DNA of 64,000 nucleotides from Heptranchias perlo (lineage: Eukaryota): contig NC_090357.1 of NCBI RefSeq assembly GCF_035084215.1, positions 806,001-870,000 of the forward strand, given 5' to 3'. Positions 3,904 through 50,342 of this stretch are shown here, piece after piece (the stretch's first letter is position 1; each line of letters opens with the position of its first letter). Under the pieces are notes generated by a model. That model saw only the letters and a list, made by a program, of their open reading frames with translations, was not told the origin of the DNA and did no database searches. The translations under genes and the position numbers were made by a program.

Positions 3904-4335
3904 TGGAGAGGGGAGATGGGAGAGGAGTGGGGAGGGGGGAGAGAGGAGGGGGGAGAGGAGAGGGTGTGTGCGCTAAGTGTAACAGGTTGCATGACTAAGG
4001 ATTGGTACCAACAGGATCCAATAGCCCCTCTCGACCCTCCAAAATCAGGATCCTGGATCTGTGCAATGAAGACACCACTGGATCTTCACTAAAGAGGACA
4101 TCACAAACGGTGAAAAAATGAGGAAACATTATCAATTCTAAATTCATTTAAAGATTTCTTGTCCATAATTTGCAGTCCACACTCTAGAATTTTAATTAGT
4201 GATGTTAATATCATTCCTTTCTGCAACAAATAAGTACATTGAAAACAGTTATGATCAAAGACACAGTACTCTGAGCTCAGAAGCGACTCTACAATCCGAG
4301 ACACAGTTATTTCCGAATAACTTTCTATTTTTAAG

Positions 4336-7300
4336 TTAGTTTTGATGGTTCTGGTGAACGTAGTTCCACAAAGTGGTGAGTTGGAACTGAATTGCCCGCC
4401 GAATGCTGTCTGTATACGGGGCAAGTGTCTCTCGCATTTCCTCCGCATTCTGACTGGTCACCTTCTTCTGATAGAACTCTTTGATTCTCTGACTGCTGTT
4501 GAGGTACTCGATGTATGGGCTCAGACTTTGGTTCGTGCTTCCCACACTCTCAGTGAACTTTTCTTTCAGTTTAATGATGTAAGGGGCCAGCTTTAGCAAC
4601 AGAGCTTTCACAGTCTCGTTGACCTTTGCTTGTACCTCCTGAGTGGATGGCACAACCCTGTGGATTATTTCACTAATCTGGACACTTTTAGCGTAGGCAG
4701 CCAGGGTATTGCGAAGCTCCTGGACTTTCTCATCAAACCTGGTGCGGAATTCCTCAGCATCGGCTGTCACCTTCTGCCTGAGCTTGTCCACGTTCTCAGT
4801 GATCTTCTGCTGGGGTTGTTCAACGTATGTAGCCAGAGCTTCCCTCAGGTTCTCTGCGTTGTCTTCCAGTTTGGCCTGAAGCTCTTCAGTGTAGGGAGTC
4901 AACCTCTGGCGGAGCTCTTCAGCGTAAGGTGTCAGCTTCTGATGAAATTCTTCAATGTTCCTGCTGATCTTCTGGTGAACTCCATCAGCAAAAGGAGAAA
5001 GCTTCACCCTCAGGTCTTCCAGCTCCCGCCTGATCTGCTGGCGGAGATTCTCAGCATCTACTGTCATCTTTACACGTAGGTCGTCTACGATGGGAGTCAG
5101 CCTCTGTTGGAGATCCTCAGCGTATCCATTGATGTTCTGCAGGTTATCCTTTATAAGATAACTGGAAAAGCAAACAAGAAAAGGTGATTTATTACATAGA
5201 TGGAATAGGAAAAAATCATTTTGTTTGAGAGCTTTTTGGCCAATGGACTCTTGACTAAGAATGGTTCAGGAACAGAACACAGTGGAGGTCAGGGAGACCA
5301 GAAATGATGAGGACAGTGGTTTATCAGGAAAATAATTGACGTGGGACCACAAAACCAACCATCCCACTGAGCGAGTTCCTGCCACCCGAGTTGGATTGTG
5401 TAACACCAGAGTAATATTGGCCTGTAGTGGCAGGAATGGGTTTATCAAACACCATCGAAAGACGTCCATTTTACACCGATGGACATTTTTTGATGATGTC
5501 ATTCCCTCCTTTTCTGTAATTTTTGATCCTCTTGTTTGAAGCTGAATAGGCCACTGCCCATTGGCTCGCGGGTCACTCTCAATCAGCTGGCCATTGGTTG
5601 ACCGTGAGGTGATGGTTCCCTCTGACTCTCTCGCCTCCCACTCAATGCCCCCTCCCCCGATTCAGTTCAAGGACTCCGCAAAGTGTGATTCCATTCTGTC
5701 TCTATCCCGGCCCCATGGCAGTGGGAATTAACTGGCCAAGTTTTCAATGACGTTTCTTCCTTCGATGTTTTTACTGGACGGCCATTTCTCGCTGTGTCCC
5801 AGGAGGCTGATCTGTACCGATGGCCCCACCTCACTCCCGGTACTCACTTGAGCCGTTGTCCGATTTCCGAGCGCTGGATCTGATCTACACTGTCCTTGGC
5901 GTCATTGGTCAATTGGCTGATGTAATCCCAGAATGCATCTCGAACCTGACCTCCATTGAACTCAGCCCGGGAGCCTATAGGGAGGAAGGAAACGAGCGGA
6001 TCATAAGACCATAAGACCATAAGAGATAGGAGCAGGAGTAGGCCATTCAGCCCTTCGAGCCTGCTCCGCCATCCAATGAGATCATGGCTGATCCGATTTT
6101 TACCTCAACTCCACTTTCCCGCCCTTTCCCCATATCCTTTGACTCCCTTGCTGATCAAAAATTTGTCTAACTCAGCCTTGAATGTATTCAATGACTCAGC
6201 CTCCACAGCTTTTTGGGGTAAAGAATTCCAAAGATTCACAACCCTCTGGGAGAAGAAATTCCTCCTCATTTCCGTCTTAAACGGGCGACGCCTTATTCTG
6301 AGACTATGCCCCTAGTTTTAGATTCCCCCATGAGGGGTAACATCCTCTCAGCATCTACCCTGTCGAGTCTCCTCAGAATCTTGTATGTTTCAATAAGGTC
6401 TCCTCTCATTCTTCTAAACTCCAATGAGTGTAGACCCAACCTGTTCAATCTTTCCTCATGAGACAATCCTTCCATACCCGGAATCAACCTGGTGAACCTT
6501 TTCTGAACTGCCTCCAATGCAAGTATGTCCTTCCTTAAATAAGGGCACCAGAACTGTACGCAGTACTCCAGGTGTGGTCTCACCAGCACCCTGTACAGTT
6601 GTAGCATGACTTCCCTGCTTTTATACTCCATCCCCTAGAAATAAAGGCCAATATTCCTTTTGCCTTCCGGATTACCTGCTGCACCTGTATGTTGACTTTT
6701 TTGTTTCATGTACGAGGACACCCAGATCCCTCTGTACCGCAGCATTTTGTAGTATTTCTCCATTCAAATAATAATATTTTGCTTTTTTATTTTTCCTCCC
6801 AAAGTGGATGACTTCACATTTTCCCACATTATATTCCATCTGCCAAATTTTTGCCCATTCGCTTAACCTGTCAGTATCCCTTTGCAGACACTTTGTGTCC
6901 TCATCACAACTTGCTTTTCCACCTATCTTTGTATCATCAGCAAATTTGGCCACAAGACACTCTGTTCCTTCATCCAAGTCATTGATATATATTGTAAATA
7001 GTTGAGGCCCCAGCACTGAGCCCTGCGGCACCCCACTAGTTACAGATTGCCATTTTGAAAATGACCCTTTTATCCTGACTCTTTGTTTTCTGTTAGTTAG
7101 CCAATCCTCGATCCATGCCAGTATATTACCCCCAACACCATGAGCTCTTATCTTGTGCAGTAATCTTTTATGTGGCACCTTATCGAATGCCTTTTGGAAA
7201 TCCAAATATACTGTGTCCATTGGCTCCCCTTTATCCACCCTGCCCGTTACTACCTCAAAGAACTCGAATAAATTTGTCAGACACGATTTCCCCTTCATAA

Positions 7301-10300
7301 AACCATGTTGACTCTCCTTGATTGTATTTTGAGTCTCCAAATGTCCTGCTACTACTTCCTTAATAATGGATTCTAGCATTTTCCCAATGACAGATGTTAG
7401 GCTAACTGGTCTATAGTTACCCGCTTTCTGTCTCACTCCCTTCTTCAATAGGGGTGTTACGTTTGCGATTTTCCAATCCGCTGGGACCTTTCCAGAATCT
7501 AGTGAATTCTGGAAGATTACAATCAGTGCATCCACTATCTCTGTAGCCACTTCTTTTAAGACCCTCGGATGCAAGCCATCAGGTCCAGGGGACTTGTCAG
7601 CCTTTAGACCCATTAGTTTACCTAGTACTTTTTCTCAGTGATTGTTTGTTTTTAGTTCCTCCCTCCCCTTTGCCCCTTGATTTTCTACTATTATTGGTAT
7701 ATTATTAGTGTCTTCTACTGTGAAGACAGTCACAAAATATCTGTTTCAATGCCTCTGCCATTTCCTTGTTTTCCATTATTATTTCCCCAGTCTCATCCTC
7801 TAAGGGACCAATGTTTACTTTAGCTACCCTCTTCCTTTTTATATACTTGTAGAAGCTTTTACTGTCAGTTTTTATATTTCTTGCTAGTTTACTCTCATAA
7901 TTTATTTTCTCCCTCTTTATTATTCTTTTAGTCATCCTTTGCTGGTTTTTAAAGTTTTCCCAATCTTTGGGCTTACCAGTAATCTTTGCCATGTTGTATG
8001 CTTTTTCTTTTAACCTGATACCATCCTTTACTTCCTTAGTTAGCCATGGTTGGTTCACCCTTTTTGTGGAGTCTTTCCTCCTCACAGGGATATATTTTTA
8101 TTGCGAGTCATAAAATATCTTTTTAACTGTTTGCCACTGCTTATCCACCATCATCCCATCTAATCTGTTTACCCAGTCCACTTTAGCCAATTCCGCCCTC
8201 ATTCCTTTATAATTGCCCTTATTTAAGTTTAATACAGTAGTTTCAGACCCAAGATCCTCGCTCTCAAACTTGATGTGAAATTCTATCATGTTATGATCAC
8301 TGCTTCCCAAGGGATCCTTTACTTTGAGATCATTAATTAATCCTGTTTTGTTACCCATACCAGATCCAAAATGGCCTGTTCCCTGGTTGGTTCCCCGACA
8401 TATTGGTCTAAGAAACAGTCCCTAATACACTCTATGAACTCCTCCTCAGGGCTATTTTTGCCAATTTGATTTGTCCAATCTATGTGAAAGTTAAAATCGC
8501 CCATGATTATTGCATTACCTTTTTTACAAGCCCCCCTTATTTCCTGATTTATATTTTGCCCTGCAGTGTAGCTACTGTTAGGGGGCCTATATACTACTCC
8601 CACCAGTGATTTCTTTCCCTTGCTATTTCTTACCTCCACCCAAATTGATTCGACATCTTGATCTTCTGAGCCAAGATCATTTCTCACTATTATACCAATT
8701 TCATCCTTTATTAACAGAGCTACCCCACCACCTTTACCTCTTTTCCTATCCTTCCAAAATGTTAAATAACCCTGAATATTTAGCTCCCAACCTTGGTCAC
8801 CTTGCAACCACGTCTCTGTAATGGCCACGAGATCATACCCATTTGTTTCTATTTGTGCCGTCAATTCATCTATCTTATTACGAATGCTGTGTGCATTCAG
8901 ATAAAGAACCTTTAATTTTGTCTTTTTACCATTCTTTCCTACCCCGGCCCCGGGGAGGGAGTGATGGGGAGGGGTGACGGGGTGGGGTGACGGTGAGGGC
9001 GTGACAGGGAGGTGTGGGGGGAAGGGGTGATGGGGAGGAGTGACGGGGAGGGGTGACGGGGAGTGAGTGACGGGGAGGGGGTGATTGGGAGGGGGTGATG
9101 GGAAGGGGTGATGGGGAGGGAGGGACGGGGAGGGGGTGACGGGCAGGGGTGACAGGGAGGGAGTGACGGGGATGGGGTGACAGCGGGGGAGTGACGGGAG
9201 GGAGTGACGGGGAGGGGGTGACGGGGAGGGGGTGATGGGAGGGAGTGACGGGGAGGGAGTGACGGGGTTGTGGAGGGGTGTGGGAGGGGGTGATAGGGAG
9301 GAGTGACTGGGAGGGGGTGATGGGGGAGGTGTGGGGGAGGGGTGACGGGGTGGGAGTGACGAGGAGGGGGTGACGGGGAGGGGTGACGGGGAGGTGGTGA
9401 CAGGGAGGGAGTGACGGGGAGGGGGGTGACGGGGAGGGGACGATGGGGAAGGGTGTTGGGGAGGTGTGAGAGGGGTGATGGGGCGGAGGTGACGGGGAGG
9501 GGGTGACGGGGAGGGGGTGACGGGGAGGGGGGTGATGGGGAGGGGGGTGACGGGGAGGGGGTGATGGGGAGGGGGGTGACGGGGAGTGGGTGACTGGGAG
9601 GGGACGATGGGGAGGGGTGACGGGGAGGGAGTGACGGGGAGGGGGTGACGGGGAGGGAGTGACGGGGAGGGGGTGACGGGGGAGGGGGTGATGGGGGAGG
9701 GGGTGACGGGGAGGGGGTGATGGGGAGGGGGGTGACGGGGAGTGGGTGACTGGGGAGGGGGGACGATGGGGAGGGGTGACGGGGGAGGGAGTGACGGGGA
9801 GAGGGTGATGGGGAGGGGGTGACGGGGAGGGGTGACAGGGAGGGAGTGACGGGGAGGGGGGGGACGGGGGAGGGGACGATGGGGAGGGGTGTTGGGGAGG
9901 TGTGAGAGGTGTGATGGGGCGGAGGTGACGGGGAGGGGGGTGACGGGGAGGGAGTGACGGGGAGGGGTGACGGGGAGGGAAGGTGACGGGGAGGGAGTGA
10001 CGGGGAGGTGTGGGGGAAGGAGTGACGGGGAGGGAGTGACGGGGAGGGGGTGACGGGGAGGGGGTGATGGGGAGGGGGGTGACGGGGAGTGGGTGACTGG
10101 GAGGGGACGATGGGGAGGAGTGACGGGGAGCGAGTGACGGGGAGGGGGGTGATGGGGAGGGGGTGACGGGGGAGGGGGTGACAGGGAGGGGAGTGACGGG
10201 GAGGGGGGGTGACGGGGAGAGGACGATGGGGGAGGGGTGTTGGGGAGGTGTGAGAGGGGTGATGGGGCGGAGGTGACGGGGAGGGGGGTGACGGGGAGGG

Positions 10301-13300
10301 AGTGACGGGGAGGGAGTGACGGGGAGGTGTGGGGGAAGGAGTGACGGGGAGGGAGTGACGGGGAGGGGGTGACGGGGAGGGAGTGACGGGGAGGGGTGAC
10401 GGGGAGGGAGTGACGGGGAGGGGTGTGGGAGGGGGGTGATAGGGAGGAGTGACTGGGAGGGGGTGATGGGGAGGTGTGGGGGAGGGGGTGACGGGGTGGG
10501 AGTGACGAGGAGGGGGTGATGGGGAGGGGGGTGACGGGGGAGGGGGTGACGGGGAGGGAGTGACGGGGAGGGGTGACGGGGAGGGAGTGACGGGGAGGGA
10601 GGTGACGGGGAGGTGTGGGGGGAAGGAGTGACGGGGAGGGAGTGACGGGGAGGGGGTGACGGGGAGGGGGTGATGGGGGAGGGGGTGACGGGGAGGGGTG
10701 ACAGGGAGGGAGTGACGGGGAGGGGGGTGACGGGGAGAGGACGATGGGGAGGGGTGACGGGGAGGGTGACAGGGAGGGAGTGACGGGGAGGGGGTGACGG
10801 GGAGAGGACGATGGGGAGGGGTGTTGGGGAGGTGTGAGAGGGGTGATGGGGCGGAGGTGACGGGGAGGGGGTGACGGGGAGGGAGTGACGGGGAGGGAGT
10901 GACGGGGAGGGGTGACGGGGAGGGAGTGACGGGGAGGGAGTGACGGGGAGGTGTGGGGGAAGGAGTGACGGGGAGGGAGTGACGGGAAGGGTTGACGGGG
11001 AGGGAGTGACGGGGAGGGGTGACGGGGAGGGAGTGACGGGGAGGGAGTGACGGGGAGGTGTGGGGGAAGGAGTGACGGGGAGGGAGTGACCGGGAGGGGG
11101 TGACGGGGAGGGGGTGATGGGGAGGGGGTGACGGGGAGGGGGGGACGGGGAGGGGACGATGGGGAGGGGTGTTGGGGAGGTGTGAGAGGGGTGATGGGGC
11201 GGAGGTGACGGGGAGGGGGGTGACGGGGAGGGAGTGACGGGGAGGGAGTGACGGGGAGGTGTGGGGGAAGGAGTGACGGAGAGGGAGTGACGGGGTGGGG
11301 GTGACGGGGAGGGAGTGACGGGGAGGGGTGACGGGGAGGGAGTGACGGGGAGGGAGTGACGGGGAGGGGTGACGGGGAGGGAGTGACGGGGTGGGAGTGA
11401 CGGGGAGGTGTGGGGGAAGGAGTGACGGGGAGGGAGTGACGGGGAGGGGGTGACGGGGAGGGGGTGATGGGGAGGGGGGTGACGGGGAGTGGGTGACTGG
11501 GAGGGGACGATGGGGAGGGGTGACGGGGAGGGAGTGACGGGGAGGGGGTGATGGGGAGGGGGGTGACGGGGAGGGGTGACAGGGAGGGTGTGACGGGGAG
11601 GGGGTGACGGGGAGAGGACGATGGGGAGGGGTGTTGGGGAGGTGTGAGAGTGGTGATGGGGCGGAGGTGACGGGGAGGGGGGTGACGGGGAGGGAGTGAT
11701 GGGGAGGGAGTGACGGGGAGGTGTGGGGGAAGGAGTGACGGGGAGGGAGTGACGGGGAGGGGGGTGACGGGGAGGGAGTGACGGGGAGGGGTGACGGGGA
11801 GGGAGTGACGGGGAGGGAGTGACGGGGAGGTGTGGGGGAAGGAGTGACGGGGAGGGAGTGACGGGGAGGGGGTGACGGGGAGGGGGTGATGGGGAGGGGG
11901 TGACGGGGAGTGGGTGACTGGGAGGGGACGATGGGGAGGGGTGACGGGGAGGGAGTGACGGGGAGGGGGTGATGGGGAGGGGGTGACGGGGAGGGGGTAA
12001 CGGGGAGGGGGTGACGGGGCGGGAGTGACGGGGAGGGGGTGACGGGGAGGGGGTGACGGGGGGGGGAGTGACGGGGACCGGTGATGGGGAGGGGGTGACG
12101 GGGAGGGGTGACAGGGGGGGGAGTGAGTGGGAGGAAGTGGCGGGGAGGGGGTGTCGGGGAGGGGGTGACGGGGAGGGGGTGACGGGGCGGGAGTGACGGG
12201 GAGGGGGGTGACGGGGAGGGGGTGACGGGGGGGGGGAGTGACAGGGGCGGAGGTGTCGGGGAGTGGGTGACTGGGAGGGAGTGACGGGGAGGGGTGTGAC
12301 GGAGAGGGGTGACAGGGAGGGAGTGACGGGGAGGGAGTGACGGGGAGGGGGTGATGGGGAGGGGGTGATGGGAAGGGGTGATGGTGAGGGGTGGGGGAGG
12401 TGTCGGGGAGTGGGTGATGGGGAGGGGTGACAGGGAGGGAGTGACGGGGAGGGGTTGATGGGGAGGGGGTGACGGGGATGGGTGATGGGGAGGGGGTGAC
12501 GGGGAGGGGGTGATGGGGAGGGGGTGACGGGGAGGGGTTGACAGGGGGGAGTGACGGGGAGGGGGTGACTGGGAGGGGACGACGGGGAGGGGTGACGGGG
12601 AGGGAGTGACGGGGAGGGGGTGATGGGGAGGGAGTGATGGGGAGGGAGTGACGGGGAGGGGGTGATGGGGAGGGGGTGACGGGGAGGGGGGGACGGGGAG
12701 GGGACGATGGGGAGGGGTGTTGGGGAGGTGTGAGAGGGGTGATGGGGCGGAGGTGACGGGGAGGGGGTGACGGGGAGGGAGTGATGGGGAGGGAGTGACG
12801 GGGAGGTGTGGGGGAAGGAGTGACGGGGAGGGAGTGACGGGGAGGGGGTGACGGGGAGGGAGTGACGGGGAGGGGTGACGGGGAGGGAGTGACGGGGAGG
12901 GAGTGACGGGGAGGTGTGGGGGAAGGAGTGACGGGGAGGGAGTGACGGGGAGGGGGTGACGGGGAGGGGGTGATGGGGAGGGGGTGACGGGGAGTGGGTG
13001 ACTGGGAGGGGACGATGGGGAGGGGTGACGGGGAGGGAGTGACGGGGAGGGGGTGATGGGGAGGGGGTGACGGGGAGGGGTGACAGGGAGGGTGTGACGG
13101 GGAGGGGGTGACGGGGAGAGGACGATGGGGAGGGGTGTTGGGGAGGTGTGAGAGGGGTGATGGGGCGGAGGTGACGGGGAGGGGGTGACGGGGAGGGAGT
13201 GACGGGGAGGGAGTGACGGGGAGGTGTGGGGGAAGGAGTGACGGGGAGGGAGTGACGGGGACGGGGTGACGGGGAGGGAGTGACGGGGAGGGGTGACGGG

Positions 13301-16300
13301 GAGGGAGTGACGGGGAGGGAGTGACGGGGAGGTGTGGGGGAAGGAGTGACGGGGAGGGAGTGACGGGGAGGGGGTGACGGGGAGGGGGTGATGGGGAGGG
13401 GGTGACGGGGAGTGGGTGACTGGGAGGGGACGATGGGGAGGGGTGACGGGCAGGGAGTGACGGGGAGGGGGTGATGGGGAGGGGGGTGACGGGGAGGGGG
13501 TAACGGGGAGGGGGTGACGGGGCGGGAGTGACGGGGAGGGGGTGACGGGGAGGGGGTGACGGGGGGGGGAGTGACGGGGACCGGTGATGGGGAGGGGGTG
13601 ACGGGGAGGGGTGACAGGGGGGGAGTGACGGGGAGGAAGTGGCGGGGAGGGGGTGTCGGGGAGGGGGTGACGGGGAGGGGGTGACGGGGCGGGAGTGACG
13701 GGGAGGCGGTGACGGGGAGGGGGTGACGGGGGGGGGAGTGACAGGGGCGGAGGTGTCGGGGAGTGGGTGACTGGGAGGGGATGATGGGGAGGGTGTGACG
13801 GGGAGGGAGTGACGGGGAGGGAGTGACGGGGAGGGGGTGATGGGGAGGGGGTGATGGGAAGGGGTGATGGTGAGGAGTGGGGGAGGTGTCGGGGAGTGGG
13901 TGATGGGGAGGGGTGACAGGGAGGGGGTGATGGGGAGGGGGTGACGGGGAGGGGTTGACAGGGGGGAGTGACGGGGAGGGGGTGACTGGGAGGGGACGAC
14001 GGGGAGGGGTGACGGGGAGGGAGTGACGGGGTGGGGGTGATGGGGAGGGAGTGATGGGGAGGGAGTGACGGGGAGGGGGTGATGGGGAGGGGGGTGACGG
14101 GGAGGGGTGACAGGGAGGGAGTGACGGGGAGGGGGTGACGGGGAGAGGACGATGGGGAGGGGTGTTGGGGAGGTGTGAGAGGGGTGATGGGGCGGAGGTG
14201 ACGGGGAGGGGGTGACGGGGAGGGAGTGACGGGGAGGGAGTGACGGGGAGGTGTGGGGGAAGGAGTGACGGAGAGGGAGTGACGGGGAGGGGGTGACGGG
14301 GAGGGAGTGACGGGGAGGGGTGACGGGGAGGGAGTGACGGGGAGGGAGTGACGGGGAGGTGTGGGGGAAGGAGTGACGGGGAGGGAGTGACCGGGAGGGG
14401 GTGACGGGGAGGGGGTGATGGGGAGGGGGTGACGGGGAGGGGGGGACGGGGAGGGGACGATGGGGAGGGGGTGACGGGGAGGGAGTGACGGGGAGGGGTG
14501 ACGGGGAGGGGGTGATGGGGAGAGGACGATGGGGAGGGGTGTTGGGGAGGTGTGAGAGGGGTGATGGGGCGGAGGTGACGGGGAGGGGGTAACGGGGAGG
14601 GAGTGACGGGGAGGGAGTGACGGGGAGGGGGTGACAGGGAGGGGGTGACGGGGAGGGAGTGACGGGGAGGGGTGACGGGGAGGGAGTGACGGGGAGGGAG
14701 TGACGGGGAGGTGTGGGGGAAGGAGTGACGGGGAGGGAGTGACGGGGAGGGGGTGACGGGGTGGGGGTGATGGGGAGGGGGTGACGGGGAGTGGGTGACT
14801 GGGAGGGGACGATGGGGAGGGGTGACGGGGAGGGAGTGACGGGGAGGGGTTGATGGGGAGGGGGTGACGGGGAGGGGTGACAGGGAGGTTGTGACGGGGA
14901 GAGGACGATGGGGAGGGGTGTTGGGGAGGTGTGAGAGGGGTGATGGGGCGGAGGTGACGGGGAGGGGGTGACGGGGAGGGAGTGACGGGGAGGGAGTGAC
15001 GGGGAGGTGTGGGGGAAGGAGTGACGGGGAGGGAGTGACGGGGAGGGTGGTGACGGGGAGGGAGTGACGGGGAGGGGTGACGGGGAGGGAGTGACGGGGA
15101 GGGAGTGACGGGGAGGTGTGGGGGAAGGAGTGACGGGGAGGGAGTGACGGGGAGGGGGTGACGGGGAGGGGGTGATGGGGAGGGGGTGACGGGGAGTGGG
15201 TGACTGGGAGGGGACGATGGGGAGGGGTGACGGGGAGGGAGTGACGGGGAGGGGGTGATGGGGAAGGGGTGACGGGGAGGGGGTAATGGGGAGGGGGTGA
15301 CGGGGCGGGAGTGACGGGGAGGGGGTGACGTGGAGGTGGTGACGGGGGGGGAGTGACGGGGACCGGTGATGGGGAGGGGGTGACGGGGAGGGGTGACAGG
15401 GGGGGAGTGACGGGGAGGAAGTGGCGGGGAGGGGGTGTCGGGGAGGGGGTGACGGGGAGGGGGTGACGGGGCGGGAGTGACAGGGAGGGGGTGATGGGGA
15501 GGGGGTGACGGGGCGGGGAGTGACAGGGGCGGAGGTGTCGGGGAGTGGGTGACTGGGAGGGGACGATGGGGAGGGAGTGACGGGGAGGGGGTGATGGGGA
15601 GGGGGTGATGGGAAGGGGTGATGGTGAGGGGTGGGGGAGGTGTCGGGGAGTGGGTGATGGGGAGGGGTGACAGGGAGGGAGTGACGGGGAGGGGTTGATG
15701 GGGAGGGGGTGACGGGGATGGGTGATGGGGAGGGGGTGACGGGGAGGGGGTGATGGGGAGGGGGGTGACGGGGAAGGGTTGACAGGGGGGAGTGACGGGG
15801 AGGGGGTGACTGGGAGGGGACGATGGGGAGGGAGTGACGGGGAGGGGGTGATGGGGAGGGGGTGATGGGAAGGGGTGATGGTGAGGGGTGGGGGAGGTGT
15901 CGGGGAGTGGGTGATGGGGAGGGGTGACAGGGAGGGAGTGACGGGGAGGGGTTGATGGGGAGGGGGTGACGGGGATGGGTGATGGGGAGGGGGTGACGGG
16001 GAGGGGGTGATGGGGAGGGGGTGACGGGGAAGGGTTGACAGGGGGGAGTGACGGGGAGGGGGTGACTGGGAGGGGACGACGGGGAGGGGTGACGGGGAGG
16101 GAGTGACGGGGAGGGGGTGATGGGGAGGGAGTGATGGGGAGGGAGTGACGGGGAGGGGGGTGACGACGGGGGTGACGGGGAGGGGGTGACTGGGAGGGGA
16201 CGATGGGGAGGGGTGACGGGGAGGGAGTGACGGGGAGGGGGTGATGGGGAGGGAGTGACGGGGAGGGAGTGACGGGGAGGTGGTGACGGGGAGGGGTGAC

Positions 16301-18101
16301 AGGGGCGGAGGTGTCGGGGAGTGGGTGACTGGGAGGGGACGATGGGGAGGGAGTGACGGGGAGGGGGTAATGGGGAGGGGTGATGGGGAGGGGTGGGGGA
16401 GGGGTGGGAGGGGTGAAGGGGCGGAGGTGTCGGAGAGTGGGTGACTGGGAGGGGACGATGGGGAGGGGTGACAGGGAGGGAGTGACGGGGAGGGTGTGAC
16501 GGAGAGGGGTGACAGGGAGGGAGTGACGGGGAGGGAGTGACGGGGAGGGGGTGATGGGGAGGGGGTGATGGGAAGGGGTGATGGTGAGGGGTGGGGGAGG
16601 TGTCGGGGAGTGGGTGATGGGGAGGGGTGACAGGGAGGGAGTGACGGGGAGGGGTTGATGGGGAGGGGGTGACGGGGATGGGTGATGGGGAGGGGGTGAC
16701 GGGGAGGGGGTGATGGGGAGGGGTTGACGGGGAGGGGTTGACAGGGGGGAGTGACGGGGAGGGGGTGACTGGGAGGGGACGACGGGGAGGGGTGACAGGG
16801 AGGGAGTGACGGGGAGGAGGTGATGGGGAGGGAGTGATGGGGAGGGAGTGACGGGGAGGGGGTGATGGGGAGGGAGTGATGGGGAGGGAGTGACGGGGAG
16901 GGGGTGACGACGGGGTTGACGGGGAGGGGGTGACTGGGAGGGGACGATGGGGAGGGGTGACGGGGAGGGAGTGACGGGGAGGGGGTGATGGGGAGGGAGT
17001 GACGGGGAGGGAGTGACGGGGAGGTGGTGACGGGGAGGGGTGACAGGGGCGGAGGTGTCGGGGAGTGGGTGACTGGGAGGGGACGATGGGGAGGGAGTGA
17101 CGGGGAGGGGTGGGGGAGGGGTGGGAGGGGTGAAGGGGCGGAGGTGTCGGAGAGTGGGTGACTGGGAGGGGACGATGGGGAGGGAGTGATGGGGAGGAGT
17201 GACGGGCAGGGCGTGACGGGAGGGGGTGACGGGGAGGGGTGACAGGGGGGCAGTGACGGGGAGGAAGTGACGGGGAGGGGGTGACGGGGAGGGGGTGACG
17301 GGGCGGGAGTGACGGGGAGAGGGTGACGGGGAGGGGGTGACCGGGCGGTAGTGACGGGGAGAGGGTGACGGGGCGGGAGTGACGGGGAGAGGGTGACGGG
17401 GAGGGTTGACGGGGAGGGAGTGACGGGGAGGGAGTGACGGGGAGGGGGTGACGGGGACAGGTGATGGGGAGGGGGTGACGGGGAGGGGGTGATGGGGAGG
17501 GGGTGACAGGGAGAGGGTGACAGGGGGGGAGTGACGGGGAGGGGATGACGGGGAGGGGTGACAGGGAGGGAGTGATGGGGAGGGGGTGACGACGGGGGTG
17601 ACGGGGAGGGGGTGACGGGGACGGGTGATGGGGAGGGGTGATGGGGAGGTGGTGACGGGGAGGGGGTGATGGGGAGGGGTGGGGGAGGTGTGGGAGGGGT
17701 GATGGGGCGGAGGTGTCGGAGAGTGGGTGACTGGGAGGGGACGATGGGGAGGGAGTGACGGGCAGGGAGTGACGGGAGGGGGTGACAGGGAGGGGTGACA
17801 GGGGGGCAGTGACGGGGAGGAAGTGACGGGGAGGGGGTGACGGGGAGGGGGTGACGGGGAGGGGGTGACGGGGCGGGAGTGACGGGGAGGGGCTGACGGG
17901 GAGGGAGTGACGGGGAGGGAGTGACGGGGAGGGGCTGACGGGGATGACTTTTGATCTGGTTCCTTGTGGTTTCGAGACAAGAGCAAAAATTCATCCTTAC
18001 AACAGGCTTCACAACAAATAATCGGAGGGCTGAGAGGAAAGTGTAAGAGACAAACCTGAGGTGAGGAGGATGAGAACCACAACTGTTGTCTTGAGAAACA
18101 T
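4336..18101 (-). CDS. apoa4: Divergent apolipoprotein A-IV-like paralog (predicted 332 aa; coding exons 18101-18056, 5974-5848, 5161-4336; ~12-kb intron 2)
   Basis: Last exon (826 nt) and 127-nt exon are homologous to the array genes, with intact GT/AG. A 46-nt phase-1 exon ccaccATG-MFLKTTVVVLILLTS-G|GTTTGT lies at 18101-18056, with acceptor ttccag|AGATTGG at 18129 matching the array exon-2 start. The spliced CDS of 999 nt is open. Joining across 12 kb is inferred. Confidence 0.75.
6003..8945 (-). mobile_element. CR1 LINE, ORF2 region (APE endonuclease + RT) broken by frameshifts; inserted in intron 2 of the divergent apoa4
   Basis: ORF pieces 8337-8864 (ITETWL, YRPPNS, GDFN), 6672-7613 (RT, PQGSVLGP, FADD) and 6293-6631 (RPHLEYC); 3' tail (TCTTATGG)n at ~6003-6025. 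Confidence 0.93.
8950..17945. repeat. ~9-kb G-rich minisatellite, basic unit ~14 bp TGACGGGGAGGG(A/G)G, with higher-order variant cassettes
   Basis: Continuous strand-asymmetric tandem repeat; marker variants such as GAGGTGTGAGAGGGGTGATGGGGCGGAGG recur every few hundred bp. Confidence 0.97.
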
Positions 18102-18450
18102 GGTGGATGTTTCAAACTACGACCAATCTCTGGAATGAAATGAAAATCAGTGTCCGGCTCATATTTAACTGCCAAAACTGTAATCATTTATAATTGTGTC
18201 TCTTGGAGTCCCGGAGGGTTGTTAATCATTCTCCTCTTTATGATTTTGACCCTGTTAATGAGAATTCTTTGACTCTACAATGTTACTCAATCATCGTTCA
18301 AACCAATGAAAATATCAGTAAGATAATCACTTGAGGGAAAGAGTTAATCCAGTTTTGGAGTTCTCCAATCTGTGTGGAGGACTCAGGAGTGAGACTCTGT
18401 TTCTTGCTGTATCATACACACTAGATCTGTAAGTTCCTGATCCAAACAGA

Positions 18451-18605
18451 AATCCAATGGACCAAACCCTTTCCCATTCCCATTGTACAGAATCCCAATG
18501 GACCAAACCGTTTCCCATTCCCATTGTACAGAATCCCAATGGACCAAACCCTTTCCCATTCCCATTGTACAGAATCCCAATGGACCAAACCCTTTCCCAT
18601 TCCCA
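18451..18605. repeat. 41-bp tandem repeat (~3.8 copies)
   Basis: AATCCCAATGGACCAAACCCTTTCCCATTCCCATTGTACAG starts at 18491, 18532 and 18573, with a variant at 18451. Confidence 0.92.
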
Positions 18606-18909: not shown

Positions 18910-19240
18910 AAGAAAAAACAGAGAGAAACTGTTCCCATTGGTCAGAGGGTCGGTAACCAGATGACAAAGATTTAAGGTAATTGGCAAAAGAACCAGGGGG
19001 GAGATGAGGAGAATGTTTTTACGCAGCGAGTTGTGATGATCTGGAATGCGCTGCCTGAAAGGGCGGTGGAAGCAGATTCAATAATAACTTTCAAAAGGGA
19101 ATTAGATAAATACTTGAAAAGGAAAAGCTTGCAGGGCTCTGGGGAAAGAGCAGGGGGAGTGGGATTAATTGGAAAGCTCTTCCAAAGAGCCGGCACGAAG
19201 GGCCAAATGGCCTCCTTCTGTGTTGTATGATTCTATGATT
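18910..19240 (+). mobile_element. CR1 3' fragment
   Basis: REKLFPL and IWNALPERAVEADSI translations; GATTCTAT tail. Homologous to the fragment at ~33725-34000 upstream of the array genes. Confidence 0.85.
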
Positions 19241-28340: not shown

Positions 28341-28342
28341 CA

Positions 28343-30770: not shown

Positions 30771-33028
30771 CTAATCCTCATTTATTTCTCCAAGGTTCTG
30801 GCGGAAGTTGTCCCACAAGGTGGTGAGTTGGATCTCCAGATCCCGCTGGATGCTGTCTGCATACGGGACAAGCCTCTCTCGCATCTCCTCCACATTCTGG
30901 CTGATCACCTTGTTCAGCTGTTCAGAGTAGGGAGCAATGTTCTGATGGAACTCCTCGATTCTCTGGTTGACGTTGCTGTTGAGATCGTCAATGTATGGGG
31001 CCAGATTTTGGTTCATGCTTCCCATGTTCTCGTTGAGCTTTTCTTTCAGTTCTGCGACGTAAGGGACCAGCCTTTGCTTCAGAACCTCCACAGTCTCGTT
31101 GACCTTTCCCTGTAGCTCCTGAGCGTATGGCACAACCTTCTGGGTCATTTCACCAATCTGTTGGTTCATCTTGGCCTGGACATCTTTGGCATAGGGAGCC
31201 ATGGTATTGCGAAGCTCCTGGACTTTCTCATCAAACCTGGTGCGGAATTCCTCAGCATCGGCCGTCACCTTCTGCCTGAGCTTATCCACATTCTCAGTGA
31301 TCTTCTGCTGGAGTTGTTCAGCGTATGGAGTCAGAACTTCCCTCAGGTTCTCTGCGTTGTCTTCCAGTTTAGCCTGAAGCTCTTTGGTGTAGGGAGTCAA
31401 CCTCTGGCGGAGTTCCTCAGCGTTGGTGTTCAGCTGGTGGCGGAGCTCTTCAGCGTAAGGTGTCAGCTTCTGATGAAATTCTTCAATGTTCCTGCTGATC
31501 TTCTGGTGAACTCCATCAGTAAAAGGAGAAAGCTTCACCCTCAGGTCTTCCAGCTCCTGCCTGATCTGCTGGCGGAGATTCTCAGCATCTACTGTCATCT
31601 TTACACGAAGGTCGTCTGCGATGGGAGTCAGCCTCTGTTGGAGATCCTCAGTGTATCCATTGACGTTCTGCAGGTTATCCTTTATAAGATAACTGGAAAA
31701 GCAAACAAGAAAAGGTGATTTATTACATAGATGGAATAGGAAAAAATCATTTTGTTTGAGAGCTTTTTGGCCAATGGACTCTTGGCTAAGAATGGTTCAG
31801 GAACAGAACACAGTGGAGGACAGGGAGACCAGAAATGATGAGGACAGTGGTTTATCAGGAAAATAATTGACATGGGACCACAAAACCAACCATCCCACTG
31901 AGCGAGTTCCTGCCATCCGAGTTGGATTGTGTAACACCAGAGTAATATTGGCCTGTAGTGGCAGGAATGGGTTTATCAAACACCATCGAAAGACATCCAT
32001 TTTACACCGATGGACATTTTTTGATGATGTCATTCCCTCCTTTTCTGTAATTTTTGATCCCCTTGTTTGAAGCTGAATAGGCCACTGCCCATTGGCTCGC
32101 GGGTCACTCTAAATCAGCTGGCCATTGGTTGACCGTGAGGTGATGGTTCCCTCTGACTCTCTCGCCTCCCACTCAATGCCCCCTCCCCCGATTCAGTTCA
32201 AGGACTCCGCAAAGTGTGATTCCATTCTGTCTCTATCCCGGCCCCATGGCAGTGGGAATTAACTGGCCAAGTTGTCAATGACGTTTCTTCCTTCGATGTT
32301 TTTATTGGACGGCCATTTCTCGCTGTGTCCCAGGAGGCTGATCTGTACCGATGGCCCCACCTCACTCCCGGTACTCACTTGAGCCGTTGTCCGATTTCGG
32401 AGCGCTGGATCTGATCCACACTGTCCTTGGCGTCATTGGTCAATTGGCTGATGTAATCCCAGAATGCATCTCGAACCTGACCTCCATTGAACTCAGCCCG
32501 GGAGCCTATAGGGAGGAAGGAAACCAGAGGATCAGAGCGGGAACACGAGAAGAACATTCACTGAATTACTGTTCATTTCACAGACAAGCAGCTTGTGATG
32601 ATTCATTGACTTCACCATATCCTGTCTGGGGAATGTCCATCAGGGAGTAAAAAGATGGATCAGTTGCCTCCTCTCTGGAGACCGGTTCGGGATGGTCCAA
32701 TGAGTAAAATCCCTTTGTCTTTGAACATCTGGGACCAGGGTTTAAAACAAGCCCAGACAGAGGGGATGAAGCCGTCTCTCCACAATGAGACGCTGAGTGG
32801 TAGAACAGGCTATGCACAGGTCTCTTACCTCGAGACCCGAGCTTAGAACTGGTCCAAACAGAGGGCATGAAGATCGTGTGTCTGATGTCCATAAAATGCC
32901 ATTCATGCTCAGACAGGCAGCAAAAACCAACAGCACAAAACAAGCAGTCCAATAACCCAGGGAAGTATGGAAGACCTACCTGAGACCATGATGGCAGCTA
33001 CGAACACAAGGATTGCCTTGGGAAACAT
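30771..33028 (-). CDS. apoa4: Apolipoprotein A-IV-like, array copy A (365 aa; coding exons 33028-32980, 32505-32379, 31692-30771)
   Basis: ccaccATG gives the signal peptide MFPKAILVFVAAIMVS-G (49 nt). A 127-nt exon encodes SRAEFNGGQVRDAFWDYISQLTNDAKDSVDQIQRSEIGQRL. A 922-nt last exon encodes Pro-punctuated 22-mer amphipathic repeats (LTPYAEELR, LAPY...). All introns are GT..AG and the phases join in frame (1098 nt). Collinear with human APOA4 as recalled (MFLKAVVL..., [22 protein letters not shown]). Confidence 0.93.
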
Positions 33029-33439
33029 GGTGGATTTCTCAAACTGGCGAATTGAATACAATTTCTGTTTTCTCAACCAATCTCTGAAAAGGCAAAAAAT
33101 CCGGGTTAGTCTGAGATTTCAATCACAAAATCTTTCATGGTCTGTTATTGCATTCCGTGTGGAACTTGCTTCCTGCTGAAAATCTGTTGCATTTATTTAC
33201 AGGACATTCTGATTATTAAAGTCTCTCTCTGAACCTCACACAATTATAAACTGTCACCTGACTGTAAATATAAACCAGTATTCTTTATATCAGGTGTGAG
33301 CTTCCACCAGTTGTCTGAGACACTGCGACCTTACACAGAGAGCACCGTCTGAGCGGGTCCCTGGGTAAGTGTGTAAACACTGTGTGTTCCCCGGCTTGTA
33401 GCAGTGTGAGGTGCAGCTGTTACACTCAGCTCCTCTTAC

Positions 33440-39222: not shown

Positions 39223-41480
39223 CTAATCCTCATTTATTTCTCCAAGGTTCTGGCGGAAGTTGTCCCACAAGGTGGTGAGTTGGATCTCCAGATCCCGCTG
39301 GATGCTGTCTGCATACGGGACAAGCCTCTCTCGCATCTCCTCCACATTCTGGCTGATCACCTTGTTCAGCTGTTCAGAGTAGGGAGCAATGTTCTGATGG
39401 AACTCCTCGATTCTCTGGTTGACGTTGCTGTTGAGATCGTCAATGTATGGGGCCAAATTTTGGTTCATGCTTCCCATGTTCTCGTTGAGCTTTTCTTTCA
39501 GTTCTGCGACGTAAGGGACCAGCCTTTGCTTCAGAACCTCCACAGTCTCGTTGACCTTTCCCTGTAGCTCCTGAGCGTATGGCACAACCTTCTGGGTCAT
39601 TTCACCAATCTGTTGGTTCATCTTGGTCTGGACATCTTTGGCATAGGGAGCCATGGTATTGCGAAGCTCCTGGACTTTCTCATCAAACCTGGTGCGGAAT
39701 TCCTCAGCATCGGCCATCACCTTCTGCCTGAGCTTGTCCACATTCTCAGTGATCTTCTGCTGGAGTTGTTCAGCGTATGGAGTCAGAACTTCCCTCAGGT
39801 TCTCTGCGTTGTCTTCCAGTTTAGCCTGAAGCTCTTTGGTGTAGGGAGTCAACCTCTGGCGGAGTTCCTCAGCGTTGGTGTTCAGCTGGTGGCGGAGCTC
39901 TTCAGCGTAAGGTGTCAGCTTCTGATGAAATTCTTCAATGTTCCTGCTGATCTTCTGGTGAACTCCATCAGCAAAAGGAGAAAGCTTCACCCTCAGGTCT
40001 TCCAGCTCCTGCCTGATCTGCTGGCGGAGATTCTCAGCATCTACTGTCATCTTTACACGAAGGTCGTCTGCGATGGGAGTCAGCCTCTGTTGGAGATCCT
40101 CAGCGTATCCATTGACGTTCTGCAGGTTATCCTTTATAAGATAACTGGAAAAGCAAACAAGAAAAGGTGATTTATTACATAGATGGAATAGGAAAAAATC
40201 ATTTTGTTTGAGAGCTTTTTGGCCAATGGACTCTTGACTAAGAATGGTTCAGGAACAGAACACAGTGGAGGACAGGGAGACCAGAAATGATGAGGACAGT
40301 GGTTTATCAGGAAAATAATTGACATGGGACCACAAAACCAACCATCCCACTGAGCGAGTTCCTGCCATCCGAGTTGGATTGTGTAACACCAGAGTAATAT
40401 TGGCCTGTAGTGGCAGGAATGGGTTTATCAAACACCATCGAAAGACGTCCATTTTACACCGATGGACATTTTTTGATGATGTCATTCCCTCCTTTTCTGT
40501 AATTTTTGATCCCCTTGTTTGAAGCTGAATAGGCCACTGCCCATTGGCTTGCGGGTCACTCTCAATCAGCTGGCCATTGGTTGACCGTGAGGTGATGGTT
40601 CCCTCTGACTCTCTCGCCTCCCACTCAATGCCCCCTCCCCCGATTCAGTTCAAGGACTCCGCAAAGTGTGATTCCATTCTGTCTCTATCCCGGCCCCATG
40701 GCAGTGGGAATTAACTGGCCAAGTTTTCAATGACGTTTCTTCCTTCGATGTTTTTACTGGACGGCCATTTCTCGCTGTGTCCCAGGAGGCTGATCTGTAC
40801 CGATGGCCCCACCTCACTCCCGGTACTCACTTGAGCCGTTGTCCGATTTCGGAGCGCTGGATCTGATCCACACTGTCCTTGGCGTCATTGGTCAATTGGC
40901 TGATGTAATCCCAGAATGCATCTCGAACCTGACCTCCATTGAACTCAGCCCGGGAGCCTATAGGGAGGAAGGAAACCAGAGGATCAGAGCGGGAACACGA
41001 GAAGAACATTCACTGAATTACTGTTCATTTCACAGACAAGCAGCTTGTGATGATTCATTGACTTCACCATATCCTGTCTGGGGAATGTCCATCAGGGAGT
41101 AAAAAGATGGATCAGTTGCCTCCTCTCTGGAGACCGGTTCGGGATGGTCCAATGAGTAAAATCCCTTTGTCTTTGAACATCTGGGACCAGGGTTTAAAAC
41201 AAGCCCAGACAGAGGGGATGAAGCCGTCTCTCCACAATGAGACGCTGAGTGGTAGAACATGCTACGCACAGGTCTCTTACCTCGAGACCCGAGCTTAGAA
41301 CTGGTCCAAACAGAGGGCATGAAGATCGTGTGTCTGATGTCCATAAAATGCCATTCATGCTCAGACAGGCAGCAAAAACCAACAGCACAAAACAAGCAGT
41401 CCAATAACCCAGGGAAGTATGGAAGACCTACCTGAGACCATGATGGCAGCTACGAACACAAGGATTGCCTTGGGAAACAT
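39223..41480 (-). CDS. apoa4: Apolipoprotein A-IV-like, array copy B (coding exons 41480-41432, 40957-40831, 40144-39223)
   Basis: Copy of A at +8452; splice sites and ORF intact; private substitutions KVMAD and VQTKM. Confidence 0.93.
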
Positions 41481-41891
41481 GGTGGATTTCTCAAACTGGC
41501 GAATTGAATACAATTTCTGTTTTCTCAACCAATCTCTGAAAAGGCAAAAAATCCGGGTTAGTCTGAGATTTCAATCACAAAATCTTTCATGGTCTGTTAT
41601 TGCATTCCGTGTGGAACTTGCTTCCTGCTGAAAATCTGTTGCATTTATTTACAGGACATTCTGATTATTAAAGTCTCTCTCTGAACCTCACACAATTATA
41701 AACTGTCACCTGACTGTAAATATAAACCAGTATTCTTTATATCAGGTGTGAGCTTCCACCAGTTGTCTGAGACACTGCGACCTTACACAGAGAGCACCGT
41801 CTGAGCAGGTCCCTGGGTAAGTGTGTAAACACTGTGTGTTCCCCGGCTTGTAGCAGTGTGAGGTGCAGCTGTTACACTCAGCTCCTCTTAC

Positions 41892-47673: not shown

Positions 47674-49931
47674 CTAATCCTCATTTATTTCTCCAAGGTT
47701 CTGGCGGAAGTTGTCCCACAAGGTGGTGAGTTGGATCTCCAGATCCCGCTGGATGCTGTCTGCATACGGGACAAGCCTCTCTCGCATCTCCTCCACATTC
47801 TGGCTGATCACCTTGTTCAGCTGTTCAGAGTAGGGAGCAATGTTCTGATGGAACTCCTCGATTCTCTGGTTGACGTTGCTGTTGAGATCGTCAATGTATG
47901 GGGCCAGATTTTGGTTCATGCTTCCCATGTTCTCGTTGAGCTTTTCTTTCAGTTCTGCGACGTAAGGGACCAGCCTTTGCTTCAGAACCTCCACAGTCTC
48001 GTTGACCTTTCCCTGTAACTCCTGAGCGTATGGCACAACCTTCTGGGTCATTTCACCAATCTGTTGGTTCATCTTGGCCTGGACATCTTTGGCATAGGGA
48101 GCCATGGTATTGCGAAGCTCCTGGACTTTCTCATCAAACCTGGTGCGGAATTCCTCAGCATCGGCCGTCACCTTCTGCCTGAGCTTGTCCACATTCTCAG
48201 TGATCTTCTGCTGGAGTTGTTCAGCGTATGGAGTCAGAACTTCCCTCAGGTTCTCTGCGTTGTCTTCCAGTTTAGCCTGAAGCTCTTTGGTGTAGGGAGT
48301 CAACCTCTGGCGGAGTTCCTCAGCGTTGGTGTTCAGCTGGTGGCGGAGCTCTTCAGCGTAAGGTGTCAGCTTCTGATGAAATTCTTCAATGTTCCTGCTG
48401 ATCTTCTGGTGAACTCCATCAGCAAAAGGAGAAAGCTTCACCCTCAGGTCTTCCAGCTCCTGCCTGATCTGCTGGCGGAGATTCTCAGCATCTACTGTCA
48501 TCTTTACACGAAGGTCGTCTGCGATGGGAGTCAGCCTCTGTTGGAGATCCTCAGCGTATCCATTGACGTTCTGCAGGTTATCCTTTATAAGATAACTGGA
48601 AAAGCAAACAAGAAAAGGTGATTTATTACATAGATGGAATAGGAAAAAATCATTTTGTTTGAGAGCTTTTTGGCCAATGGACTCTTGGCTAAGAATGGTT
48701 CAGGAACAGAACACAGTGGAGGACAGGGAGACCAGAAATGATGAGGACAGTGGTTTATCAGGAAAATAATTGACGTGGGACCACAAAACCAACCATCCCA
48801 CTGAGCGAGTTCCTGCCATCCGAGTTGGATTGTGTAACACCAGAGTAATATTGGTCTGTAGTGGCAGGAATGGGTTTATCAAACACCATCGAAAGACATC
48901 CATTTTACACCGATGGACATTTTTTGATGATGTAATTCCCTCCTTTTCTGTAATTTTTGATCCCCTTGTTTGAAGCTGAATAGGCCACTGCCCATTGGCT
49001 CGCGGGTCACTCTCAATCAGCTGGCCATTGGTTGACCGTGAGGTGATGGTTCCCTCTGACTCTCTCGCCTCCCACTCAATGCCCCCTCCCCCGATTCAGT
49101 TCAAGGACTCCGCAAAGTGTGATTCCATTCTGTCTCTATCCCGGCCCCATGGCAGTGGGAATTAACTGGCCAAGTTTTCAATGACGTTTCTTCCTTCGAT
49201 GTTTTTACTGGACGGCCATTTCTCGCTGTGTCCCAGGAGGCTGATCTGTACCGATGGCCCCACCTCACTCCCGGTACTCACTTGAGCCGTTGTCCGATTT
49301 CGGAGCGCTGGATCTGATCCACACTGTCCTTGGCGTCATTGGTCAATTGGCTGATGTAATCCCAGAATGCATCTCGAACCTGACCTCCATTGAACTCAGC
49401 CCGGGAGCCTATAGGGAGGAAGGAAACCAGAGGATCAGAGCGGGAACACGAGAAGAACATTCACTGAATTACTGTTCATTTCACAGACAAGCAGCTTGTG
49501 ATGATTCATTGACTTCACCATATCCTGTCTGGGGAATGTCCATCAGGGAGTAAAAAGATGGATCAGTTGCCTCCTCTCTGGAGACCGGTTCGGGATGGTC
49601 CAATGAGTAAAATCCCTTTGTCTTTGAACATCTGGGACCAGGGTTTAAAACAAGCCCAGACAGAGGGGATGAAGCCGTCTCTCCACAATGAGACGCTGAG
49701 TGGTAGAACAGGCTACGCACAGGTCTCTTACCTCGAGACCCGAGCTTAGAACTGGTCCAAACAGAGGGCATGAAGATCGTGTGTCTGATGTCCATAAAAT
49801 GCCATTCATGCTCAGACAGGCAGCAAAAACCAACAGCACAAAACAAGCAGTCCAATAACCCAGGGAAGTATGGAAGACCTACCTGAGACCATGATGGCAG
49901 CTACGAACACAAGGATTGCCTTGGGAAACAT
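47674..49931 (-). CDS. apoa4: Apolipoprotein A-IV-like, array copy C (coding exons 49931-49883, 49408-49282, 48595-47674)
   Basis: Copy of A at +16903; ORF and splice sites intact. Confidence 0.93.
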
Positions 49932-50342
49932 GGTGGATTTCTCAAACTGGCGAATTGAATACAATTTCTGTTTTCTCAACCAATCTCTGAAAAGGCAAAA
50001 AATCCGGGTTAGTCTGAGATTTCAATCACAAAATCTTTCATGGTCTGTTATTGCATTCCGTGTGGAACTTGCTTCCTGCTGAAAATCTGTTGCATTTATT
50101 TACAGGACATTCTGATTATTAAAGTCTCTCTCTGAACCTCACACAATTATAAACTGTCACCTGACTGTAAATATAAACCAGTATTCTTTATATCAGGTGT
50201 GAGCTTCCACCAGTTGTCTGAGACACTGCGACCTTACACAGAGAGCACCGTCTGAGCGGGTCCCTGGGTAAGTGTGTAAACACTGTGTGTTCCCCGGCTT
50301 GTAGCAGTGTGAGGTGCAGCTGTTACACTCAGCTCCTCTTAC

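What the first reader, a model, noticed from the sequence alone, without database searches (positions are those of the whole stretch)
4336..18129. Hidden fifth apoA-IV paralog whose signal-peptide exon lies 12 kb away, behind a LINE and a giant satellite
Seen: the left gene looks decapitated by the CR1 at 6003. However, a phase-compatible exon with a Kozak ATG (MFLKTTVVVLILLTS-G), a GT donor at 18055 and the same AGATTGG exon start as the array genes lies at 18129-18056. Intron 2 would be ~12.1 kb versus 474 nt in the array copies. The signal peptide differs from the array one and starts more like mammalian MFLK. Inference: a functional older paralog that ORF-based annotation would miss or call a pseudogene.
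Basis: partly seen in the sequence, partly recalled or inferred. Interest (0 to 1): 0.7.

Follow-up and report, generated by a model that had tools for sequence, protein, structure and literature searches.

The report
Spliced mosaic shark apolipoprotein A-IV-like gene
A shark lipid-transport gene that looks cut off by a retroposon is intact, because RNA shows its signal exon spliced across 12 kb of repeats, and its middle was recently homogenised with near-identical neighbouring copies, which is a clean case of known processes.

Summary
A contig of public run X2 lies on 18055-18106 without mismatch and runs on directly into the start of exon 3. The 12,081-nt intron 2 (9.0-kb satellite plus a broken 2.9-kb LINE) is therefore spliced out, in 1 of 3 runs of one sample. 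The model gives a stop-free 332-aa secreted apoA-IV-like protein.

Two things change the reading. First, the distant exon carries the usual elasmobranch signal peptide (7 of 13 species), so this is probably the ancestral-type locus and the four-copy array carries the derived peptide. Second, the gene is a mosaic: 6003-4705 differs from all array copies at 19 of 1,299 sites, but 4704-4100 at 130 of 603. This fits a gene-conversion tract running from the LINE tail to the helix B/C hinge. The unconverted C-terminal third is shorter, basic and weakly constrained (dN/dS 0.80).

Long LINE-filled introns are normal in sharks, and conversion between tandem paralogs is well known. New member of a known kind.

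The parts
18056..18129 (-). Exon 2: 5' UTR and signal-peptide codons (ATG at 18101; 15 codons + 1 nt)
   Evidence: RNA contig covers 18056-18106 only; 18107-18129 inferred from the acceptor and branch-point motif
5975..18055 (-). Intron 2, 12,081 nt, GT-AG
   Evidence: bridged by the X2 contig
17945..18055 (-). Unique 5' stub of intron 2 (111 nt)
8951..17944 (.). 14-bp-unit satellite, about 659 copies, 79% matches, C-rich on the transcribed strand; consensus found nowhere else in the window
6004..8950 (-). Broken LINE ORF2 plus 3' tail, in sense with the gene (CR1-type label recalled, not from a call); 5 pieces in 3 frames, 2 in-frame stops, 5 AATAAA
5848..5974 (-). Exon 3, 127 nt; protein-identical to array gene 1
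   Evidence: first 30 shown loose letters of the X2 contig match 5973-5944
5162..5847 (-). Intron 3, 686 nt, 5-9 differences from the array copies
4336..5161 (-). Exon 4 coding part: amphipathic 11/22-mer repeats (PF01442); deletions of 33, 18, 6 and 27 nt and a 1-nt deletion just before the stop
4705..6003 (-). Homogenised (gene-conversion) tract shared with the array
   Evidence: 19 of 1,299 fixed differences against 130 of 603 beyond it; max chi-square 230 against permutation maximum 24
4191..4196 (-). Candidate poly(A) signal ATTAAA
   Evidence: motif only
18916..19181 (.). LINE 3' stub, probably the same insertion as the stub upstream of each array gene
   Evidence: 90% to the array stub against 81-83% to four other stubs; far flank score 43 against shuffle maximum 33; near flank not significant
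30771..33083 (-). Array gene 1 (365 aa)
39223..41535 (-). Array gene 2 (365 aa)
47674..49986 (-). Array gene 3 (365 aa)
56110..58422 (-). Array gene 4 (365 aa)

Best explanation
The left gene is an intact, transcribed gene for a secreted, exchangeable apolipoprotein of the apoA-IV/A-V group. Shown: exon 2 is spliced to exon 3 across the satellite and the LINE, and the frame is open. Inferred: both exons are short and are recognised by exon definition, so the repeat-filled intron is skipped. The 19-residue signal peptide is cleaved, and the 313-aa mature chain binds lipoprotein surfaces through amphipathic helices. History (inferred): the locus duplicated in this lineage. One copy took a new signal peptide and amplified into 8.45-kb tandem units. 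The other kept the ancestral peptide, gained the LINE and satellite in intron 2, and diverged. Gene conversion between it and the array later re-homogenised 6003-4705; the direction is not shown. The tract ends where homology ends at the LINE tail, and at 4704, next to an 18-nt deletion and at the position of human residue 203 (the helix B/C hinge). The product has an array-type N-terminus and helices A-B with its own shorter, basic C/D arm.
For: Junction contig, 152 nt, depth 4,251, 0 mismatches over 52 nt, loose end equal to the exon-3 start. Gene-specific 3' words held by 3 of 3 listed runs; 0 of 591 31-mers of that stretch occur elsewhere in the window. Open 332-aa frame; 4 of 4 internal indels are in frame. 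PF01442 at 178 bits, cut-off 90. Best PDB sequence match is human apoA-IV. KT-type signal peptide in 8 of 14 elasmobranch entries; at 9 sites where left and array peptides differ, three elasmobranch species match left at 5 and array at 1-2. Breakpoint statistics. At 15 of 15 array-polymorphic sites in the tract the left gene carries an array allele. Hinge mapping (helix limits from PMC6523623 section 2.1). TEs and large indels end conversion (PMC3924837 passages).
Against: The junction is seen in 1 of 3 runs, all of one sample and one study, and as an assembled contig rather than raw reads; the runs are only guessed to be RNA. Only 30 of 100 loose letters are shown, and they are identical in all five exon-3 copies, so assignment to 5974 rests on gene order. 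No contig was shown to link exon 2 to the gene-specific 3' end. The donor GTTTGT is weak, and the intron holds 27 acceptor-like sites in satellite and LINE plus 5 AATAAA. C-terminal dN/dS 0.80 (95% 0.47-1.46) does not show purifying selection. Trees do not fix when the duplication happened (AU p = 0.31 for left+array in the C-terminal part).
Confidence: 0.74

Rival explanations
1. The gene is transcribed and spliced but redundant and decaying. The array took over the job, and the C-terminal third drifts almost neutrally, kept looking alive partly by conversion.
For: C-terminal dN/dS 0.80, not distinguishable from 1. Branch 0.35 against 0.14 for the array. 6- and 2-residue deletions break the 11-mer register and the hinge proline is lost. 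Tetrapod outgroups side with the array at differing sites, for example 11 against 4 and 16 against 5.
Against: 4 of 4 internal indels are in frame and there is no premature stop, although synonymous divergence is 0.28. Mean hydrophobic moment is kept (0.363 against 0.380). Signal exon and splice sites are kept. Other sharks' proteins also have rebuilt C-termini.
Confidence: 0.15
2. The junction comes from another locus or haplotype in which the same exon 2 lies close to an exon 3; the copy in this window is functionally decapitated by the LINE and satellite.
For: No whole genome could be searched. The shown loose letters do not tell exon-3 copies apart. The window has a gap at 61361-61573.
Against: The contig matches this exon at 52 of 52 letters, and none of its 22 31-mers occurs elsewhere in the window. 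The same runs hold this gene's own 3' end. The LINE is old enough to carry several breaks while the gene's frame is intact.
Confidence: 0.07
3. The mosaic is an assembly artefact: array reads were merged into the middle of an old paralog.
For: Near-identical repeats, a 9-kb satellite and an N gap lie close by.
Against: The RNA contig joins the left-specific exon 2 to an array-identical exon-3 start (30 of 30 shown letters). The tract has 19 fixed differences and a 33-nt deletion of its own.
Confidence: 0.04

Closest known systems
Elasmobranch 'apolipoprotein A-IV-like' proteins (Pristiophorus, Stegostoma, Chiloscyllium, Rhincodon, Pristis, Carcharodon, Cetorhinus and others)
   Same: One clade with both window proteins (SH-aLRT 100). 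Same KT-type signal peptide as the left gene.
   Different: Only 34-41% identical to the left exon-4 product for the three shark hits; the others are far more derived. No second, array-type paralog was retrieved from any other shark (word-limited or clustered searches).
Human/tetrapod apolipoprotein A-IV (PDB 9hx4, 3s84)
   Same: Best solved-structure match. The array protein is colinear with it up to a 4-residue gap. Introns fall in the signal peptide and after the first repeat block, as described in PMC6523623 (passages).
   Different: Left protein is 33 aa shorter than the array protein and matches human apoA-IV in register only up to about the B/C hinge. Both shark genes seem to keep a 5' UTR intron (motifs only), whereas human APOA4 has three exons.
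Zebrafish apoA-IVb.1-3 paralogs
   Same: A set of closely related apoA-IV paralogs plus a divergent one (PMC4348566 passages).
   Different: Teleost A-IVb falls outside the clade holding the shark genes. No mosaic was mentioned in the passages seen.
Gene conversion between tandem paralogs (e.g. human red/green opsins)
   Same: Patchy identity with homogenised introns; tracts ended by TEs or indels; divergent segments can mark selection (PMC3924837 passages).
   Different: Here the whole 3' flank, UTR included, is divergent, so there is no isolated divergence peak to prove selection.

Membership tests
Exchangeable apolipoprotein A1/A4/E family | PF01442 domain above the curated cut-off | tested here: met
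   178 bits (left) and 271 bits (array) against cut-off 90
Exchangeable apolipoprotein A1/A4/E family | Proline-punctuated 11/22-residue amphipathic repeats | tested here: met
   Array spacing 33,22,22,22,44,22,22,22,22,22; left 33,22,11,27,55,22,22,33 (partly broken); hydrophobic moment 0.376 in both; model all-helical
Exchangeable apolipoprotein A1/A4/E family | Signal peptide on its own exon, phase-1 intron, short repeat-block exon, long last exon | tested here: met
   (hydrophobic core KD 3.5). Cleavage site inferred by alignment; no SignalP available
ApoA-IV/A-V group (against apoA-I and apoE) | Groups with tetrapod A-IV and A-V, apart from A-I and E | tested here: met
   Branch support 97, quick tree of 30 proteins
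ApoA-IV in the strict sense | Sister to tetrapod A-IV rather than A-V | tested here: inconclusive
   Unresolved fork of shark clade, A-IV, A-V and bichir/sturgeon A-IV-like
ApoA-IV in the strict sense | Three exons, first intron lost (PMC6854765, PMC6523623) | tested here: inconclusive
   Branch point, pyrimidine tract and CAG upstream of exon 2 in left and array genes point to a retained intron 1; RNA did not cover it
ApoA-IV in the strict sense | Synteny with APOA1/APOA5 cluster | not testable with these tools
   No genome held; no other host gene recognised among the window's ORFs
ApoA-IV in the strict sense | Domain-swapped dimer fold, lipid binding, LCAT activation | tested here: inconclusive
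   Low-confidence model (pLDDT 61); top fold match 3s84 but E = 0.14; activities not testable
Interlocus gene conversion | Sharp tract of near-identity, non-coding DNA included, flanked on both sides by divergent paralogous DNA | tested here: met
Interlocus gene conversion | Non-reciprocal transfer with known donor | not testable with these tools
   Needs orthologous loci of close relatives or population haplotypes

The most novel reading that the evidence does not exclude
Selection, not just loss of homology, stops conversion at the helix B/C hinge. The shark then makes two apolipoproteins with the same N-terminal backbone but different lipid-opening arms: an acidic, canonical one at four or more copies, and a basic one (net +4 against -9) with two extra glycosylation sequons under the ancestral promoter. 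This would be a natural domain-swap experiment on apoA-IV. In addition, the shark genes would keep intron 1, against the published view that apoA-IV lost it at its origin.
Probability: 0.2. Interest if true: 0.55.

Novelty: new member of a known kind. Interest (0 to 1): 0.32.

Why it matters
It corrects a likely annotation trap: the gene is whole, and short reads or gene finders could merge it with the array or cut off its signal exon. It shows that a sense-strand LINE 29 nt from an acceptor, plus 9 kb of satellite, does not prevent splicing here. It documents a multi-copy apoA-IV-like array in a shark with a dated-looking conversion tract. The slowly evolving array protein is a useful anchor for the unresolved A-IV/A-V split. 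None of this needs a new mechanism.

Tried and rejected
Whole-genome search: none held. No listed run is on record as RNA; X1 and X3 gave no piece on exon 2, and no run covered 18107-18129 or an exon 1; these blanks are not evidence. Cover at 18445-18609 comes from a 41-bp repeat at 90-99% likeness, placed at two sites, and was set aside. Locating exon 1 by homology failed (score 31, shuffle maximum 45). No remnant of array intron 2 was found inside the 12-kb intron (best E 2.3), and the 111-nt stub alone does not align above shuffles. 'Left gene is the orthologue of the galeomorph gene from a duplication older than sharks': the best C-terminal tree hints at it (61/78) but AU tests reject nothing (p 0.19-0.31). 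'Recent duplication with fast ends' was rejected because the 3' UTR differs at 54-56 of 225 sites while intron 3 differs at 5-9 of 686. The huge ORFs over the satellite are a by-product of the repeat. AlphaFold and Foldseek were uninformative. Earlier scan findings: nothing. Eight literature searches listed no paper on a shark apoA-IV array; only listings were seen for most, the library is open-access only, and no supplements were read.
Full report
Observation. The window is shark-like DNA: the best protein matches are elasmobranch apoA-IV-like proteins. It holds five apoA-IV-like genes on the minus strand. Four lie in 8.45-kb units that are about 99% identical and encode 365-aa proteins differing at 2-4 residues. 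The left gene has exon 3 at 5974-5848 and exon 4 at 5161-4336. Its similarity to the array stops at 6003, where the tail of a LINE begins. Joined, the frame is 332 aa without a stop; intron 2 is 12,081 nt against 474 nt in 4 of 4 array genes. The exon region is homologous to the array exon-2 region (score 86, shuffle maximum 44 of 200). It is the only one of 60 phase-1 ATG...GT candidates in 6004-30500 that is hydrophobic and also has an AG|GT donor and a CCACC start (3 were hydrophobic).

RNA test. I searched public runs with 4100-4720, whose 591 31-mers occur nowhere else in the window. Three runs, guessed to be RNA, of one sample and one study hold 0.76, 0.75 and 0.68 of 71 sampled words. 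Laid on 17950-18915, run X2 gave a 152-nt contig of depth 4,251 that fits 18055-18106 with no mismatch or gap and has a 100-nt loose end at the donor. The 30 letters shown are the reverse complement of the exon-3 start (5973-5944) and of the same stretch in the four array genes. The one-base overlap at 18055 is the G shared by donor and exon 3. The array genes lie upstream, so the only exon 3 reachable in cis within the window is 5974. X1 and X3 showed nothing on exon 2, and nothing covered 18107-18129; the tool warns that holes prove nothing and that depth cannot rank genes. So the splice is shown in 1 of 3 runs; linkage to the gene-specific 3' end, exon 1, tissue and level are not.

The intron. 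It is 111 nt of unique DNA, a 14-bp satellite of about 659 copies (8951-17944), a LINE ORF2 with tail in sense orientation (6004-8950; RVT_1; 5 pieces in 3 frames and 2 stops against the intact element in the window), and 29 nt before the acceptor. The CR1 label is recalled. The LINE tail abuts the branch-point motif that sits at -30 in the array and supplies similar motifs at -33 and -41; that it serves as branch point is inference. The satellite has 26 acceptor-like sites but no strong donor, and the LINE has 5 AATAAA. Long CR1-filled introns are the norm in at least one shark: over 88% of whale shark genes have CR1-like LINEs in introns (10.1101/443036, passages). In mammals young LINEs tend to lie far from exons and are insulated by repressive proteins (PMC6108849, abstract and outline only), so the closeness to the acceptor is mildly notable.

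The signal peptide is the ancestral one. A peptide of the M-x-x-K-T-[T/I] type occurs in 8 of 14 elasmobranch entries examined, from 7 of 13 species; the other 6 models have no such peptide. At the 9 sites where left and array peptides differ, Pristiophorus, Stegostoma and Pristis match left at 5 and array at 1-2. The vole protein matches both equally. No search retrieved an array-type paralog from another shark, though these searches are word-limited or clustered. A LINE stub upstream of the left gene looks like the same insertion as the one upstream of the array genes: 90% identical against 81-83% to four other stubs, far flank score 43 against shuffle maximum 33, near flank not significant. 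This favours a duplication within this lineage. Trees do not settle it: left with other sharks has support 61/78 in the C-terminal part, and left+array is not rejected (p 0.31).

The gene is a mosaic. Against the array, exon 3 differs at 1-2 of 127 sites and intron 3 at 5-9 of 686, close to the 0-1 and 2-6 among array copies. The last 369 coding bases differ at 75-76 sites and the 3' UTR at 54-56 of 225. The best breakpoint is 4704 (19 of 1,299 against 130 of 603; chi-square 230, permutation maximum 24), with a weaker step at 4888 (16 of 1,000 permutations as high). At 15 of 15 array-polymorphic sites in the tract the left gene has an array allele. This is the pattern of interlocus gene conversion, which ends at TEs and large indels (PMC3924837, passages; identity dependence in PMC3924818, passages). 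The direction is not shown. The RNA junction confirms the 5' side of the mosaic independently of the assembly.

The protein. Base 4704 is residue 153 of the exon-4 product, which aligns to precursor residue 223, mature 203, of human apoA-IV. Helix B is 96-204 and helix C 206-255 (PMC6523623 section 2.1; mature numbering assumed, and consistent with the proline at 205). So the shared part is the N-terminus plus helices A-B, and the private part is the C/D arm proposed to swing away on lipid binding. An 18-nt deletion at 4680 gives a mechanical reason for the same stop, so selection is not shown. The private part has net charge +4 against -9, a kept hydrophobic moment (0.363 against 0.380), two extra N-glycosylation sequons, no hinge proline and dN/dS 0.80 (0.47-1.46), against 0.34 (0.13-1.05) in the tract. 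All 4 internal indels keep the frame; a 1-nt deletion near the end shortens the tail. The fold model was weak (pLDDT 61; top match apoA-IV 3s84 at E 0.14).

Membership. Apolipoprotein A1/A4/E family: met. A-IV/A-V group: met (support 97). Strict A-IV: unresolved, since the shark clade, A-IV, A-V and bichir/sturgeon proteins form an open fork. PMC6854765 (passages) says apoA-IV lost its first intron when it arose; both shark genes have acceptor and branch-point motifs before exon 2, which suggests otherwise but lacks RNA support. Closely related apoA-IV paralogs are known in zebrafish (PMC4348566, passages).

Verdict. What is there is an ancestral-type apoA-IV-like locus with a repeat-inflated intron and a converted middle, beside a young array. 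Eight searches of an open-access library listed no description of it, and the scan's earlier notes hold nothing. Every ingredient is of a known kind. Interest 0.32.

Noticed in passing
window 30549-59849, gap at 61361-61573: Tandem array of at least four 8.45-kb units, about 99% identical, each with an intact 365-aa gene; unit DNA continues up to the N gap, so copy number may be higher.
   Followed up: partly
window 30771-33083 and copies: The array protein is strikingly slow-evolving: end branch 0.07 against much longer paths in other sharks, and nearly gap-free against human apoA-IV.
   Followed up: partly
window 23640-27629: Apparently intact full-length LINE (open 1,035-aa ORF2 with endonuclease and RT, plus upstream ORFs) that splits 99%-identical array-unit DNA (22202-23645 and 28331-30800), so it is younger than the array.
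   Followed up: partly
window 18130-18175 and 33084-33130: Branch-point motif, pyrimidine tract and CAG before exon 2 in left and array genes suggest a retained 5' UTR intron, unlike mammalian APOA4.
   Followed up: partly
P0003, P0004, P0005, P0021, P0024, P0184: Six annotated shark apoA-IV-like models lack the signal peptide; some carry unrelated N-termini (one looks LINE-derived, one fused to another gene), suggesting that this exon is often missed.
   Followed up: no
window 8951-17944 (+ strand): The satellite has 254 non-overlapping G-quadruplex-type motifs on the template strand and 470 CpG; its length may be polymorphic.
   Followed up: no
window 18446-18605: A 41-bp tandem repeat upstream of exon 2 draws many diverged contigs in all three runs, so it belongs to a dispersed repeat family.
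   Followed up: no
window 27941-28347: GC-rich 53-68-bp tandem repeats between the full-length LINE and the array-unit DNA, possibly the element's 5' end.
   Followed up: no
window 2389-3972: A 527-aa open reverse-transcriptase-like frame of a different LINE family just 3' of the left gene.
   Followed up: no
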